Position numbers: made by a program. Below, in pieces: positions 9,001 through 60,000 of a stretch of DNA of 64,000 bases. Source of the stretch: Laetmonice hystrix (Eukaryota). The stretch's first letter is position 1; each line of letters begins with the position of its first letter. The stretch covers positions 2,790,001-2,854,000 of the forward strand of contig OZ249440.1 of the NCBI GenBank assembly GCA_965235115.1, written 5' to 3'.

Positions 9001-12000
9001 TCCCCGTACCTAGACTACCTCTGCCTACTGACACACCAGCCATGCTAGAAGCTACGAGAGGCATTGGTCGGAAACGTCCATGTAAACCAGCCAAACTTCC
9101 TGGTTAAAAAGCTTCAAGCCAACATCAGGTCAATTTACTTGGACAACACTTCCTGTGATAAACTTGTCTGTAGGTAAACCGGAATACTGCTACTTTCTTC
9201 TTTAATCTACACCTCAAACACTTCAATTCTCGTTCTGATCAGGGTCCAATAATACAGATCAAAAAGTTGCGATAATTGCCAAATGACCTTGTAGTACGTT
9301 CTCAACACTTGTCAACAGGATGCACTACTTCAGCTATGGGCATGACTTGCATAGATCGGGGTCCAGTTCCTACATTGTTTCGTAAAGCCAGGGGTTTGGA
9401 AGACCAACATGTCAGCAGTATAAAAATGTTTATTGTTTCTACGGTCAACAAGTTAAAAACATGAGCTGGCCTAGTCAGTGAATTATAGATGGGCAACTAG
9501 GGTTTGACTGGCGCTCTGCAATATAGGCCCTACTCCAAACTATCGCTATGCACATAAATGCAATCATAATAACGAAGACAACCACGCCACAGGATAAGTT
9601 GACTAAAATCTACATGCCAAGAACATATGATAGAATTGTGAACACCACACTGACAGCCATTGTTCCTGCAGTGACAAATTAACAAGACTTGTAGAATAAT
9701 TGTACGCTACTCATTCCAAACACTTGAATCGAGCTATAATTGAACACATGCCTCATTTTTTCATTCGGAGTAAATTTAGGTAACACTACCTAAGTTCAGA
9801 CTGCAGATCAAGATTTTGCGTCTCTTTCATAACTGGACTTCAACATGTTGAAAGTGTGATTTCCATGTAGATCAAAGCTATGGTTCAATACCAGGTACTG
9901 TGCCTTGCGTGTAGGAGGGTAAATACACACAAGATAAATCCAACCATTCAATCCACCCAGGTCTTATACACGTCAGAGGAGAAGGTGGCCCTAAAAATAG
10001 TTCCTTTAATCTCTTTGACAATATACCATATGAAAAGGCCATTCTCTTCTACGTGTTGTTATCACTAGCAGTCTGGTTCAGCTATGAATCCATTACATAT
10101 CCCTTGTCAAAGTGTTTGCACGATGGACCAAACGGTTGAGGAAATGCTAGAAAGCATAGATCATGTTGCACTGCAATAACTGGACACAAATAAGCAGTTT
10201 TGAGGTGCTGAAAGTATAACATACAAATCCATCATTCATTTTCCTACCCAAGTCAGGTAGAAAAATCCCTCATCACTCCCGTACAACTAACTACATGTAC
10301 TCCTCGGGGGTTTGGTATCCCTGGGCTAGGATGGAACGTTTGGTAGCTTATGTTTTAGTCCCTCAGTACGAGCTCGTGTTGGGTCGGAGCTCGTCAGTCT
10401 GGCTACCTGTAGTTGGGAGGATCCCGGGTTTGTACACAGCCGGGCCGGTCAATGGAAGGACAGCTCGGCTGAGTGCTATCTGCTGGTTGGTTGACTCAGA
10501 GCGAGTACTCGAGTAGCGTGCTGTAGGATGCCTTGACTGAACCGTAGTTGGCACAGAGAGCTGCCTTGCTCTCCCGACCCCAGTGTTTCTCCATAAACAC
10601 TTCTCCTTCCCATGTCGTTGTCGGCTTCTGCTCCAGCTGGGTCCAGTCTTCTCCCACAACCACCGCCACGGCGTTTGCCTTCGGTACATCTACTCGGAAC
10701 GCCACGTACTGGTAGCTGGACGCTGACCCTTTCGACGGTCGGTTGGCGGTCAGCTGGCCCTCTAGTGGCTCGTGTAGGAAGCAGCCTTCCTTCCATTGGC
10801 CGTACTGCTTCGGGAAGGGAATCAACGTAGCGTAAGTCATGTGGCAGGCTATCAGGTAGTTGTAGACACCAGGCAGGCTCTCGGAGGTGTCTGAGTATGG
10901 CAGTGCATACACTTGGAACTTGTACATTCCCATCTTGGGCAGCTTGATGTTGAAGATGACATTGTTGTCCCGGCCGAGCTGCAGGATGTAGTCGGAGAAG
11001 TCCTCGTTCTTGTTGCCGGAGACGTAGATAAGTTGTGACGTCATCCGGAGAGGTTGGTTCATGGCGAACGATACTTGAAGATCGCCGTTGTCTGACTGGA
11101 TGTACGGGTCGTTGTGACTGGTAGTCGCCAGTCCCAGCTTCTTGAAGGATGGCTGGGGACCGAGGTAACCAGGGGGTAGGACAGGAAGTGGTTCTACAGC
11201 TCCCTTAATCTCCTGACAAATGATCAGGTACTGGTAGGCGTGATACAACGAGTTGCCATCAGCTTCAGGATCATTGGCGTAGATCTCCAACCCATACTCT
11301 CCGACACCTGGGGCATTGATTGTGAACACAGCCAGGTCTCCAACAACACGGTGCATGATGTATCCTGCTAGAGCTTTCTCATCTTGCTCGTTGCTCTTTA
11401 GTTTGGCCGTAAAGCGCAGATCCTTGGGCAGCCGGAACTTGACCTCAGCCTGGCCGTTGACAGTGCTGAAGATGGCGCCACGCTGCATTGGTGTGATGTT
11501 GTACTTGTGTGCACTGTCTCCAGGTCCCCACGAGGTGTGAACGCATGGCGGGAACGGTTGTGGGCGTGGTGGGGAGGATTCAGCGATCACCTCATACTCA
11601 CACACCCCACCGTAAACTCCCTCCTTGGTGGCTTGTGTGAGATCCTTGGCGTACAGGATCAGACGGTAGGACCCAGCCTCAGGGGGTCGGATGGTGAAGA
11701 AGGACACGTTGTCAAGCATCTCCTGCATCCCGAAACGATTGAGTTTGGTGTTCTTGTACTCCTCTCTGCCATCGTCATAGGACAATGTGAATGTGAACGC
11801 CAGCGAGTTGGCCTTGAAGGGTGGACAACCGACACGGATCGTCACCTCCCGAGTGGTGTGGATGACCGCTTCACGGTGGCTCAGGATCTGAAGGCCGTAC
11901 TTGAAGAACGCAGACTTCACAGGTACCAGGTTCTCAAAGTCTGACAGCGAGATGGGGCGCTCAAGGAGCTGCCAGCTGGGGTCGTCCGGGAAATGAGTGA

Positions 12001-57000: not shown

Positions 57001-60000
57001 GAAGGACACCTCAGCACGGCCATTGGGTGCGAGTAGGATGGCACTCTCCTGGGAGGGTGTGAGACCATACTGACGGACCGGAGCTCCAGGACCCCAGTTA
57101 GAGTCCGAGCATTGCGGGTATGGATGTATGTCTCCTGCTGCCTGGTCACAGACAATCTTGTACTCACATGTCGCCTTGAATACATTCTCCACCTTGATAC
57201 GGTCCCCGACCTGCTGCGCGAAGATGGTCAGGTAGTAATTGCCCTCACGTGGTGCCCGGAAGTAGAACGATACACGTCCGTCAGCTGTCTCCTGGATGAT
57301 GTACCGTTTGAGACTGACCCCTTGGATGTTCTCCACCATCGCGTCACCGTATCCCAGTTTGAAGGTAAACGCTGCCATCTTGGTGTATCCAAGATGGAGT
57401 GCCAGGATTCCCTTGTTGGTATACATGACGCCCTGTTCCATGCCAATAAACTTCATACCCACCGTGAAGAAGTACGACTTGACGAGCGGGTAATCCTCAA
57501 AGTCGCCATGGGTTCGCGATGGGTAGAGAAGTTGCCATGTGGGATCTTCAGGACAGTGAGAGTAGCCGAGATGTTGTGGTTCCGGGATGAAGTAGAAGTC
57601 GTCATACTCGTAGACAAGGTTTTCTGGCGTGTTCCGTTCTGACTGGAGGTAGCGGGTCGCCCAGTGGCTGTCCACTAACTGCCAGTTTCCGTCGATAAAG
57701 ACAGCGTTCCAGCTGTGGTTGATTGGGCCCGAGGTGATGGGAGATCCAGGGCGGTACTCAACCCCCTTCGCCCAACCTGACAGCGTCACGCACGGCAACC
57801 CGGCATAGCTGTAGGTAACAAACATTCAACAGGTCATCAATATAGCGATTTTGATTTTAACCAATAATTGTTTTTTATCTTTTCAAAAACCTTAAGACTA
57901 CTCACTTAAGATGGGACGGTTTGAGAACAACTGATCCGCTACTTTTATTAAGTTACCATTAAGTCATGCATCTTAAAGGGAAATGTGAGTGTTCAAAGCG
58001 CCACCTAGTGAGTCGCGTTGGTACCACTGTGGAAATATGAGTATTCAAAGCGCCGCGTACTGAGCTTTAACAGAAAAATGGTTGGCTTATTTATGCAGTC
58101 AACTACTTTGATGTGGAAATCAGATCTTAGAAAGCCTTTATCTATTTAGAATATTGTGGCTATATCTTTGTACGGTATCACAGTTAGTACCTCGCAAGGC
58201 ATTCAAAGATGCGGGCGTATGTGGTCTTGCCGTCCTTAAAACCGTCGATGATTTGTTCGGGAGAGCCAGGCAGCAGGCTGTCGAACATGATCGTGTACAT
58301 ATTCTTGGTGGTCATCCATCGGAAAATGGTTCTGAAGGGGAAAAAATGACATTAGTAGAGTACAAACACACTTTGAGGCCAATACGGGATCACTGAACTC
58401 ACCTAAATGTCTCAATCTCTGACAACACCGTGCTAAACATCTGACCTTGCCGAGTATTTAAAAAGAGATAACTTTTCTCTGATGTCCAGTAAAAGGATTA
58501 ACCCATTTTTTTACGCTGCACGTGTTACTTTGATGTCTATTTCTATGACGACAGGGTCACACTGACCTTGCTTTCTCAAGGTCGTTGAAGTTCTTGCGAT
58601 GGATCAGGTTCCAGATGAGATCCCGGAAGGCGCGATAGTTTGTCCTTGCCTCCTGGAACACATGAAACAGGACGAATTGATGAAATCTTCCAGACTTTAT
58701 GGCATGTAGATCCCCCAAGGTGGCACTTACCACTACTTACAGCACACAAACCGGGCCCAGACCTCCACCACAACTCACCCCTGGCCCCGGTTTTTAGTTC
58801 GTCATTTTACCAATCTTAAGACTGAAATTTGAAGATTGAATTGTGTTATAGTCTCTCCGTGGCTGACTTCATTTCAAGGACCGATCAGAAGCTCTGAAAC
58901 AAGAGTTTAGTCTTAAGATTTAAATCTTAAGACTCGGTTTGCAAACTAAAAACCAGGGCCTGGCCCTGCCCTTGGCCCTACCCCTACCCCTACCCGTGCC
59001 CCTGTTCCACACCCGTACCCCTCATTCCGTGGGTACCCTGGGGGTATAACCCTGTGACACGCCACTGACAGAGTCCATGTTTGGGACTGTGTATTAGGCG
59101 TGGAAGGTTGGAGATAGGAAACCTTTGTACATACCAATACTGTGTGTCCACAAATCTAACAATAAATCTAACAATGTACACTGTGGCCAATATCAACTCA
59201 GACTGCCAACATGGCATGTGGAGTAGGACTGTTATCAATATTTCATACCAAGCTTTGGTTAACACGTTCAGTTATTTGGACTGTACAATTAGCGATGATA
59301 AGATTCCGTTTTTCTCATAGTTGCACCCATTTCCTAACTCACCACATATATGGATCCCGTCGGGATGGGGGATGATGTACCTTGAAAACCTAAGAAATAA
59401 ACGTCCCTACCCTGCACATAGAGTTCTCTGAATGGACATTGTTAGACCCAGATTGTTCCCCTGGGCCTCCTCCCCTCCCATTTATAACATCCTTTCTCTG
59501 TTCCTGTTTACTGTAAGATTTACTGAGGCTGTCCTATATCAGCCTGTAATACTTACAGGCTTTCCTGGAGATTTTCGACTTTTGGGGGAATCCTGCGAGT
59601 TGGGGGGGGGGGGGCGAAGAGTAATGCAAAATATTTGCCCCAGGAATTTTTTTTTTTGGGGGGGGGGGGAGCTGAATGATGGGGGAGAGTCCCCCCCCAA
59701 AAAAAAAAATAAAAATAAAAAAATAAAGGGCCTGCAGGAAACCCTGACCTATCTAGATGAGGGACCCCCCCCCCCCAGCCTTTAATCAAGTCCATTTTTC
59801 CCAGTCCAAGTACTAACTTCTGCAGCCTTCCCAAGTATTACGTGTACTGTACTAGGTGATGTGCCTGCTGAGCACTCTCCGTTAAAGAAGATCAGTTTTT
59901 GTATCCATGTAGTTCACGCATTCCAATAATTACTCCACAGACAACAATATTTCAACCTCAACTGGCAGTGGGCCACATCAGATAATGTTCTACTGCCAGG

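What the first reader, a model, noticed from the sequence alone, without database searches (positions are those of the whole stretch)
10496..58652. One gene with an internally duplicated transglutaminase-like/Ig-like module and preserved intron positions
Both modules have the same exon series: 86/89 nt (phase 0-2), 141 nt (phase 2-2), then a large exon starting (S)YAGL. The proteins are clearly homologous but diverged (FRDLIWNLI...NDLEKAR vs FRDLVWHLI...NELEKAR). Module 1 has two Ig-like repeats and no stop; module 2 has three plus a C-terminal domain. The KY, hillarin, LTD-1 and Cyk3 proteins I know carry one TG-like domain, so a tandem two-module form is unusual, though it may already exist among unannotated lophotrochozoan proteins.
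Basis: partly seen in the sequence, partly recalled or inferred. Interest (0 to 1): 0.65.

Follow-up and report, generated by a model that had tools for sequence, protein, structure and literature searches.

The report
Tandem KY-like transglutaminase-fold gene pair
Two old, diverged copies of a KY/hillarin-type cytoskeletal scaffold gene lie head to tail 44 kb apart on one strand, and sequence alone cannot show whether they are spliced into one double protein; the family itself is ordinary.

Summary
The large exons are 38.6% identical over 345 aa (E 3e-78) and carry 2 and 3 Pfam Ig-like_KY domains.

Module 1's large exon is not a plain terminal exon. It ends at a strong donor four codons before a stop. 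Eight further symmetric (phase 0-0) mini-exons of 117-132 nt follow. They encode a Y/Q/G/P-rich repeat under purifying selection (dN/dS 0.07-0.11).

An in-frame chain of 1,654 codons can be drawn from module 1 to module 2. However, the link exon (38152-37996) carries an ATG four codons after an in-frame stop. An AATAAA cluster follows the last mini-exon, and a CpG-dense patch lies in the 7.8-kb gap.

I favour two tandem paralogues (about 0.55) over one fused gene (about 0.3). No transcript data or orthologues were available.

The parts
58567..58652 (-). Module 1 exon A1, 86 nt, phase 0 to 2 (EARTNYRAFRDLIWNLIHRKNFNDLEKA). The exon before it is not in the window.
   Evidence: acceptor 4.0, donor 4.5; no upstream homologue found in 58653-64000.
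58191..58331 (-). Module 1 exon B1, 141 nt, phase 2 to 2. It would hold the N-terminal half of the transglutaminase-like core.
   Evidence: No Pfam or PDB hit on its own.
56626..57808 (-). Module 1 large exon, 1,183 nt. It holds the C-terminal part of the TG-like core (H and D kept), two Ig-like_KY domains and repeat unit 0. It ends at the donor CAG|GTGAGT; a TAG follows at 56613-56611 if unspliced.
   Evidence: Pfam PF23265 E 4e-44, two stretches. Sub-threshold Transglut_core match, profile positions 68-107 of 108, E 0.13. Donor score 8.5. Alignment.
55241..55372 (-). Mini-exon u1, 132 nt, phase 0-0.
53925..54050 (-). Mini-exon u2, 126 nt, phase 0-0.
49664..49786 (-). Mini-exon u3, 123 nt, phase 0-0.
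49305..49427 (-). Mini-exon u4, 123 nt, phase 0-0 (QYDQYDESSRDPSSPMYGQFAGRQYGRQPGDKSLTRPHGSQ).
   Evidence: dN/dS 0.07-0.10 against u5 and u6.
48944..49066 (-). Mini-exon u5, 123 nt, phase 0-0.
48054..48176 (-). Mini-exon u6, 123 nt, phase 0-0.
47563..47688 (-). Mini-exon u7, 126 nt, phase 0-0.
47265..47339 (-). Candidate exon, 75 nt, phase 0-0 (FAAQDVADMGALPKGHAPPKPPRAQ). Not a repeat unit.
   Evidence: Best-scoring candidate in 47535-38153: acceptor 5.8, donor 4.9. No homology support.
45988..46104 (-). Mini-exon u8, 117 nt, phase 0-0. A diverged unit with the donor CAG|GTTGGCAT seen in u5 (u4 and u7 share GTTGGC). The last detectable unit.
   Evidence: Profile of u0-u7: 12.8 bits, E 0.013, against a best opposite-strand score of 3.9 bits. 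Sequence.
45741..45758 (-). Cluster of three AATAAA hexamers about 235 nt downstream of u8. A possible poly(A) signal for gene 1.
   Evidence: Reading through the u8 donor gives 23 codons and a stop at 45918-45916.
42001..42800 (.). CpG-dense, GC-rich patch (42151-42450: GC 0.68, CpG o/e 1.02, 35 CpG) with a CCAAT on the minus strand at 42269. A candidate promoter; a lead only.
41223..41261 (-). Candidate 39-nt micro-exon, phase 0-0 (GNEYSPYGKGPGD), donor GAC|GTAAGT.
   Evidence: acceptor 4.5, donor 3.3. By my rough estimate, about 0.5 such candidates are expected by chance in the gap.
37996..38152 (-). Link exon L, 157 nt, phase 0 to 1. Its acceptor AG is the AG of an in-frame TAG (38155-38153). 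The ATG is at 38140-38138. It is proline-rich (KKAPPPTAPKPGRGQQGREDELPPPPPELMEQQAQLQAGP).
   Evidence: codon score 27.5; acceptor 1.1, donor 4.6. Weak CAP_N-CM match, E 0.015, below cut-off.
17467..17553 (-). Candidate exon x, 87 nt, phase 1-1.
   Evidence: acceptor -1.1, donor 6.5.
13085..13347 (-). Module 2 proline-rich exon, 263 nt, phase 1 to 0, ending FKDTDVFKNVDTHAVE. The same open frame has an in-frame ATG at about 13411.
   Evidence: codon score 49.8; acceptor 0.4, donor 3.5.
12752..12840 (-). Module 2 exon A2, 89 nt, phase 0 to 2.
12424..12564 (-). Module 2 exon B2, 141 nt, phase 2 to 2.
10496..12245 (-). Module 2 large exon. It holds the C-terminal part of the TG-like core, three Ig-like_KY domains and about 100 aa of C-terminal region with no Pfam match. 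Stop at 10498-10496.
   Evidence: Pfam PF23265 E 5e-79, three stretches. Transglut_core positions 68-107 of 108, E 0.012, below cut-off. FAP246 7n6g_6E, E 2e-6.

Best explanation
An old tandem duplication of a KY/hillarin-type gene left two head-to-tail paralogues on the minus strand. I think they are most likely separate transcription units.

Gene 2 (about 38.1 kb, or further upstream, down to 10.5 kb) has the canonical build. It has a proline-rich disordered N-terminus starting at the ATG of exon L, a transglutaminase-fold core split over three exons, three KY-type Ig-like domains and a short C-terminal region.

Gene 1 starts beyond the window's right end. It keeps the core and two Ig-like domains. 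The third Ig-like domain and the C-terminal region are replaced by a tail made from at least nine copies (one inside the large exon, eight separate mini-exons) of a 39-44-aa Y/Q/G/P-rich unit.

Shown:
- The homology and the preserved intron positions and phases.
- The domain content.
- Selection on the mini-exons.

Inferred:
- Both cores are non-catalytic binding modules. His and Asp are kept, but no cysteine is conserved in exons A or B.
- The proteins act as cytoskeleton-associated scaffolds, like KY, hillarin and Cyk3.
- The proline-rich stretches and the repeat tail serve as disordered, multivalent binding regions.
- Gene 1 ends near the AATAAA cluster at 45.75 kb, and gene 2 has its own promoter in the 7.8-kb gap.
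For: - Module homology and intron conservation.
- Family assignment: Ig-like_KY E 4e-44 and 5e-79; sub-threshold Transglut_core on the first 46 aa of both large exons; FAP246. Nearest Atlas clusters carry Ig-like_KY, most commonly from Mollusca, plus a 927-aa 'kyphoscoliosis peptidase-like' cluster.
- Gene 2 alone would be about 820 aa with the canonical order of parts.
- Exon L has an ATG four codons after an in-frame TAG and the second-highest codon-usage score in the 44 kb scanned.
- After the last detectable repeat unit (u8) come three AATAAA within about 250 nt.
- The gap holds the window's most CpG-dense GC-rich patch, with a CCAAT.
- Mini-exons: 8 of 8 are open, a multiple of 3 in length and AG/GT-bounded. 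The three pairs among u4-u6 give dN/dS 0.07-0.11. Their 100-nt flanks are 0.50-0.63 identical, like unrelated 100-mers (mean 0.57).
- No cysteine is invariant in exon B, and none occurs in exon A. H31 and D46 are invariant.
- General knowledge: tandem paralogues are far commoner than 45-kb internal duplications.
Against: - The whole chain from A1 to the module 2 stop stays in frame: 4,962 nt, 1,654 codons, with every junction phase fitting.
- Exon L has a usable acceptor exactly at the in-frame TAG, so it can also be read as an internal exon in phase 0, the phase in which all mini-exons end.
- u8 keeps the unusual donor CAG|GTTGGC shared by u4, u5 and u7 (u1 has GTTGGT), although the rest of the unit has diverged. 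This suggests it is still spliced onward.
- No convincing terminal exon for gene 1 was found. All 13 AG sites between u8 and the AATAAA cluster score 1.1 or lower, 12 of them -4 or lower.
- No recognisable gene lies between the modules. 0 of 20 ORFs of 86 aa or more gave a Pfam hit above cut-off, and there was no tRNA or Rfam match.
- The promoter-like signals are weak. TGACGTCA is over-represented across the whole window, so its presence at 42288 says little.
Confidence: 0.55

Rival explanations
1. One transcription unit. Module 1, the mini-exon array, exon L, exon x and the proline-rich exon are spliced to module 2. The product is a protein of about 1,650 aa or more, with two TG-like/Ig-like modules joined by roughly 500 aa of disordered Y/Q/G/P-rich linker.
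For: - An in-frame chain of 18 exons and 1,654 codons.
- A strong donor (8.5) ends module 1's large exon four codons before a stop.
- Selected phase 0-0 mini-exons extend the frame 10.6 kb toward module 2.
- u8's donor motif is conserved.
- Exon L's acceptor coincides with the only in-frame stop upstream of its ATG.
- Module 1 lacks the canonical 3' domains.
- There is no recognisable gene in between.
- The linking exons share one compositional style.
Against: - Exon L looks like a first coding exon: ATG four codons after a stop.
- Its acceptor is only moderate, at 1.1.
- A 7.8-kb gap with an AATAAA cluster and a CpG-dense patch separates u8 from L.
- Module 2 with its own proline-rich N-terminus is a complete canonical protein.
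- No two-core KY-like protein turned up. The nearest Atlas clusters have representatives of 183-927 aa, and 0 papers held four phrases for a doubled TG-like domain.
Confidence: 0.3
2. Two genes with their own promoter and terminator, plus a minor read-through (conjoined) transcript that uses the in-frame chain.
For: The same facts as for both readings above. Signals for a 3' end and a 5' end lie in the gap, and the path across it is phase-compatible.
Against: Nothing in the sequence speaks directly for a mixture; it is a compromise reading.
Confidence: 0.12
3. Module 1 is a decaying relic of the duplication (a pseudogene), and the mini-exon-like units are just a DNA repeat.
For: Module 1 lacks the third Ig-like domain and the C-terminal region. 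Several unit acceptors score poorly, from -3.0 to 2.0.
Against: - Module 1's three exons keep 470 open codons at 38% identity to module 2, with all splice sites intact.
- The units have dN/dS of about 0.1, with flanks at random identity.
- 8 of 8 units are open and a multiple of 3 in length.
Confidence: 0.02

Closest known systems
KY (kyphoscoliosis peptidase) and 'kyphoscoliosis peptidase-like' proteins
   Same: A transglutaminase-like core followed by KY-type Ig-like domains (Pfam PF23265 is named after KY). An Atlas cluster named kyphoscoliosis peptidase-like carries Ig-like_KY in 95% and Transglut_core in 90% of members. Gene 2 on its own has this build and a comparable length.
   Different: Gene 1 has only two Ig-like domains and a repeat tail made of mini-exons. 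No cysteine is conserved in the exons that should hold the nucleophile. Whether KY itself keeps the triad was not checked here. The muscle Z-disc and filamin C role of KY is known to me only from abstract starts in a search listing (PMC6078408, PMC13434911).
Hillarin (leech, Drosophila) and C. elegans LTD-1
   Same: Invertebrate TG-like proteins tied to the cytoskeleton and cytokinesis (passages of PMC3718969). From recall, they belong to the same superfamily branch as KY.
   Different: From recall, hillarin has W180 domains and LTD-1 has a LIM domain at the N-terminus. Gene 1's N-terminus lies outside the window. Gene 2's candidate N-terminus is proline-rich with no such domain.
Yeast Cyk3
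   Same: A catalytically inactive TG-like domain used for binding (Rho1-GDP), according to the abstract and discussion passages of PMC3718969. One Atlas neighbour cluster carries Ig_CYK3_C in 17% of members. This gives a working model for a non-enzymatic core.
   Different: From recall, Cyk3 has an SH3 domain and a different domain order. No sequence-level comparison was run here.
Chlamydomonas FAP246 (PDB 7n6g, 7sqc)
   Same: The only solved structure with significant sequence similarity. Residues 6-132 of module 2's large exon match chain residues 584-694 at E 2e-6, including the HxW...LVD stretch.
   Different: It is an 1,138-aa chain, and the similarity covers only part of the core.

Membership tests
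KY/hillarin-type transglutaminase-like proteins | KY-type immunoglobulin-like domains (Pfam PF23265) after the core | tested here: met
   Module 1 large exon: E 4e-44, 2 stretches. Module 2 large exon: E 5e-79, 3 stretches. Cut-off 27 bits.
KY/hillarin-type transglutaminase-like proteins | Transglutaminase-like core (Pfam PF01841) | tested here: inconclusive
   The core is split over exons A, B and the large exon, and exons were searched singly. Only the first 46 aa of each large exon match profile positions 68-107 of 108, at 13.0 and 16.3 bits against a cut-off of 23. Exons B1 and B2 gave no hit.
Catalytically active transglutaminase-fold enzymes (Cys-His-Asp triad) | Nucleophile cysteine N-terminal to the His and Asp | tested here: not met
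   H31 and D46 of the large exons are invariant. No cysteine is invariant between B1 and B2, and exons A1 and A2 contain none. Caveats: the position of the nucleophile in the fold is recalled, and exon B could not be aligned to a profile.
   No transcript data. Only phase and frame compatibility could be shown.
Hillarin / LTD-1 subtypes | N-terminal W180 or LIM domains (recalled) | not testable with these tools
   Gene 1's 5' exons are not in the window. Exon L and the proline-rich exon gave no such Pfam hit.

The most novel reading that the evidence does not exclude
The locus encodes one protein of about 1,650 aa or more. Two KY-type modules (pseudo-transglutaminase core plus Ig-like domains) are tethered by about 500 aa of disordered linker. 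The linker is assembled from an array of symmetric, individually skippable mini-exons, giving a length-adjustable double-headed cytoskeletal scaffold. A search of four phrases for a doubled TG-like domain found no paper describing this architecture.
Probability: 0.33. Interest if true: 0.55.

Novelty: new variant of a known kind. Interest (0 to 1): 0.33.

Why it matters
KY-family proteins are poorly understood scaffolds. Their loss causes myopathy in humans and mice (abstract starts seen in the listing), and their yeast relative acts through a non-catalytic TG-like domain (PMC3718969 passages).

If the two modules are one protein, that would be a new bivalent architecture for the family. It would also be an example of gene fusion after tandem duplication.

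Even as two genes, the upstream copy is informative. It shows how a paralogue swapped folded C-terminal domains for a selected tail of symmetric mini-exons encoding an aromatic/Gln/Gly-rich repeat. That layout allows length variation by exon skipping.

In practice, the locus is a trap for automatic annotation, which could either fuse or split it.

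Tried and rejected
1. AlphaFold2 on module 2's large exon, with a two-row alignment. Mean pLDDT was 37.4 and pTM 0.26. The model was unusable, so I ran no fold search and did not spend the second job.
2. PDB sequence searches with exon B2, exon B1 and a two-row profile of both. There were 0, 0 and 6 hits at E up to 10, and the 6 were irrelevant (MESD, designed repeat proteins). The nucleophile position therefore could not be aligned.
3. A search for module 1's upstream exon in 58653-64000, by tblastn, tblastx, frame listing and motif patterns. 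Nothing was found.
4. Pfam on 20 ORFs (86-151 aa, both strands) between the modules. None passed the cut-off; 1 of 20 had a poly-Glu artefact hit at E 0.077.
5. tRNA and Rfam scans of the window gave 0 and 0 hits.
6. CRE and half-CRE clustering at 42.2-42.5 kb as promoter evidence. I rejected it as distinctive, because TGACGTCA occurs 15 times in the window against 1.03 expected, and other places have equal half-site density.
7. A degenerate 'unit 9' terminal exon (cag|CAATAA at 45899). Its acceptor scores -5.9, so I did not adopt it.
8. The paper search was badly framed (8,921 papers, none holding the KY term among those listed) and yielded nothing.
9. The splice-site weight matrices are rough values recalled from general metazoan consensus, not trained on this genome. 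Scores are used only for ranking.
10. Genome contigs holds prokaryotes only, and the phage, plasmid and E. coli collections cannot hold a metazoan gene, so none of these were used.

Full report
**What is there**

Module 1:
- Exon A1, 58652-58567 (86 nt).
- Exon B1, 58331-58191 (141 nt).
- A large exon from 57808.

Module 2:
- Exon A2, 12840-12752 (89 nt).
- Exon B2, 12564-12424 (141 nt).
- A large exon from 12245 to the stop at 10498-10496.

In both modules the A|B intron splits the Arg codon of EKAR, and the B|C intron splits the Ser codon before YAGL. All sites are AG/GT.

The similarity is far beyond chance:
- The large exons share 38.6% identity over 345 aa, E 3e-78. A weaker offset match (25.6% over 223 aa) reflects the internal Ig-like repeats.
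- Exon B is 37% identical.
- Exon A has 12 identities of 28/29 and one codon indel.
- In a self-tblastx, only 2 of 812 non-self matches link regions more than 1.5 kb apart. Both link the two large exons.

**Family**

Each exon was searched on its own.

- Pfam finds Ig-like_KY (PF23265) twice in module 1's large exon (E 4e-44) and three times in module 2's (E 5e-79).
- 0 of the 6 short exon pieces in the same call hit anything at E up to 0.01.
- The first 46 aa of both large exons match the last third of the Transglut_core profile (positions 68-107 of 108), but below the cut-off: 13.0 and 16.3 bits against 23.
- The only relevant solved relative is FAP246 (7n6g_6E, E 2e-6). The alignment runs through the HSWNAV...LVD stretch.
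- The ESM Atlas puts both large exons next to the same clusters. These carry Ig-like_KY, and the best cluster is most commonly from Mollusca. A 927-aa 'kyphoscoliosis peptidase-like' cluster lies further down the list.

So these are KY/hillarin-type proteins. I do not take the window for human.

His31 and Asp46 of the large exons are invariant. No cysteine is invariant in exon B, and exon A has none. Both cores therefore probably lack the nucleophile. That resembles the inactive TG-like domain of Cyk3, which binds Rho1-GDP (abstract and discussion passages of PMC3718969). This is an inference, because exon B could not be aligned to any profile or structure.

**Module 1 does not stop at its large exon**

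The large exon ends at CAG|GTGAGT after 56626. That donor scores 8.5; fewer than 0.4% of the 4,737 GT sites on this strand score 5.8 or more. A TAG follows four codons later if the intron is retained.

The last 41-45 aa of the exon form the first copy of a repeat unit. tblastn and then a profile search found eight more copies downstream on the same strand:

| Unit | Coordinates |
|---|---|
| u1 | 55372-55241 |
| u2 | 54050-53925 |
| u3 | 49786-49664 |
| u4 | 49427-49305 |
| u5 | 49066-48944 |
| u6 | 48176-48054 |
| u7 | 47688-47563 |
| u8 | 46104-45988 |

- 8 of 8 units are 117-132 nt long, a multiple of three, free of stops, preceded by AG and followed by GT. All are therefore phase 0-0.
- u8 is diverged: 12.8 bits, E 0.013, against a best opposite-strand control of 3.9 bits.
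- Among u4, u5 and u6 (3 of the 6 pairs computed), dN/dS is 0.07-0.11 with pS 0.58-0.67.
- The three pairs that include u3 are saturated at synonymous sites (pS 0.76-0.89, pN 0.37-0.43).
- The 100 nt on either side of the units are 0.50-0.63 identical, no better than unrelated 100-mers (mean 0.57, max 0.81).

Similarity thus begins and ends at the splice sites. These are selected coding exons, not a DNA satellite.

The unit (for example QYDQYDESSRDPSSPMYGQFAGRQYGRQPGDKSLTRPHGSQ) is rich in Tyr/Phe, Gln, Gly and Pro. I infer that it is disordered.

A further candidate exon at 47339-47265 (75 nt, phase 0-0, acceptor 5.8, donor 4.9) is the best-scoring candidate between u7 and exon L.

**The link to module 2**

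The exon upstream of A2 (13347-13085) is proline-rich and ends FKDTDVFKNVDTHAVE. Its best acceptor puts it in phase 1.

A codon-usage scan of the 44 kb between the large exons picked out two more pieces:
- Exon L, 38152-37996: score 27.5 (second only to the proline-rich exon), donor 4.6, ends in phase 1.
- Exon x, 17553-17467: phase 1-1, donor 6.5.

L to x to the proline-rich exon is in frame, with or without x. By length arithmetic alone, the full chain of 18 exons from A1 to the stop is 4,962 nt, or 1,654 codons, and every phase fits. I cannot account for the 23-aa difference. Weak extra candidates exist at 51577-51476 and 41261-41223.

**Why this does not settle one gene against two**

Exon L begins tag|GTGACGACACGGATG. 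The AG of an in-frame TAG can serve as an acceptor (score 1.1), which puts the exon in phase 0, the phase in which the mini-exons end. Equally, the ATG at 38140, four codons after that stop, can be the start codon of a separate gene. That gene's product of about 820 aa would have the canonical KY-like build.

By my rough reckoning, neither reading makes this configuration much likelier than the other.

For two genes:
- Three AATAAA hexamers at 45753-45741 lie about 235 nt after u8. Reading through u8's donor meets a stop after 23 codons.
- The remaining 7.8-kb gap holds the most CpG-dense GC-rich patch of the region (42151-42450: GC 0.68, o/e 1.02, 35 CpG), with a CCAAT.
- The general prior favours tandem paralogues.

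For one gene:
- u8 keeps the unusual donor GTTGGC shared by u4, u5 and u7 (u1 has GTTGGT).
- No acceptable terminal exon was found between u8 and the hexamers. All 13 AG sites score 1.1 or lower, 12 of them -4 or lower.
- Module 1 lacks the canonical 3' domains.
- Nothing else recognisable lies between the modules. 0 of 20 ORFs pass Pfam, and there are no tRNA or Rfam hits. The 25.8-38.8 kb stretch is mostly minisatellites.

The CRE at 42288 is not informative, since TGACGTCA occurs 15 times in the window against 1.03 expected.

I put about 0.55 on two genes, about 0.30 on one gene, and about 0.12 on two genes with some read-through.

**How it probably works**

This is inferred from the family. 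A non-catalytic TG fold and KY-type Ig-like domains would act as protein-binding modules at the cytoskeleton:
- KY: known to me only from abstract starts in the listing.
- Hillarin at the cleavage furrow, LTD-1 in an actin-like pattern, and Cyk3 binding Rho1-GDP: passages of PMC3718969.

The polyproline runs in exon L and the proline-rich exon could bind SH3, WW or profilin-type partners. The only hint is a sub-threshold CAP_N-CM match at E 0.015. The repeat tail or linker would add multivalent, length-adjustable contacts, since every unit can be skipped without breaking the frame.

**Novelty and limits**

- A full-text search for four phrases describing a doubled TG-like domain found 0 papers.
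- 'kyphoscoliosis peptidase-like' occurs in 1 paper, an abalone haemocyte expression study that only lists the gene name. Its supplementary tables could not be seen.
I therefore obtained no orthologues, no phylogeny and no survey of architectures.
- The claim that known family members carry one core rests on recall and on the lengths of the Atlas clusters (183-927 aa).
- The structure prediction failed (pLDDT 37.4).
- The splice scores use recalled consensus weights.

Noticed in passing
window 1-64000, for example 11036, 37002, 37627, 37661, 42288, 48135, 63865, 63890: The palindrome TGACGTCA (CRE-like) occurs 15 times, against 1.03 expected. 0 of 100 dinucleotide shuffles reached 15. The sites are scattered over exons, introns and repeats.
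   Followed up: partly
window 25789-38804: A dense run of unrelated minisatellites lies in the long gap between exon L and exon x. Examples: 41 nt x 21 at 25789-26618, 29 nt x 41 at 27695-28871, 98 nt x 9.7 at 29473-30422, 46 nt x 11 at 34975-35474, and 60 nt x 9.8 at 38220-38804 right next to exon L.
   Followed up: no
window 4959-5747 (-): A 262-aa ORF with a Methyltransf_16 lysine methyltransferase domain (E 5e-33). It is the next gene downstream on the same strand.
   Followed up: partly
window 7296-7544 (+): An ORF piece that matches the C-terminal part of SPATA24 (E 6e-11), on the opposite strand.
   Followed up: no
window 3608-3904 (-): An ORF with weak, sub-threshold matches to an RNF34L-like domain and to HeH/LEM (E 1e-4 and 3e-3). 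It is probably an exon of another gene.
   Followed up: no
window 550-1969 (+): An 87-nt tandem repeat in two blocks (10.1 and 3.7 copies, 98% matches). It gives long artefactual ORFs in several frames.
   Followed up: no
window 39909-40404: Overlapping ORFs on both strands with no Pfam hit. They reminded me of repeat-borne sequences in marine invertebrates (recall only). The local CpG o/e is 1.2-1.4.
   Followed up: no
window 51476-51577 (-): A possible further diverged repeat unit between u2 and u3 (EYSGATEAGPTSPTSPGFTGGHYPALRGGPMSKQ; phase 0-0; profile score 7.1, E 0.81). It is not significant.
   Followed up: partly
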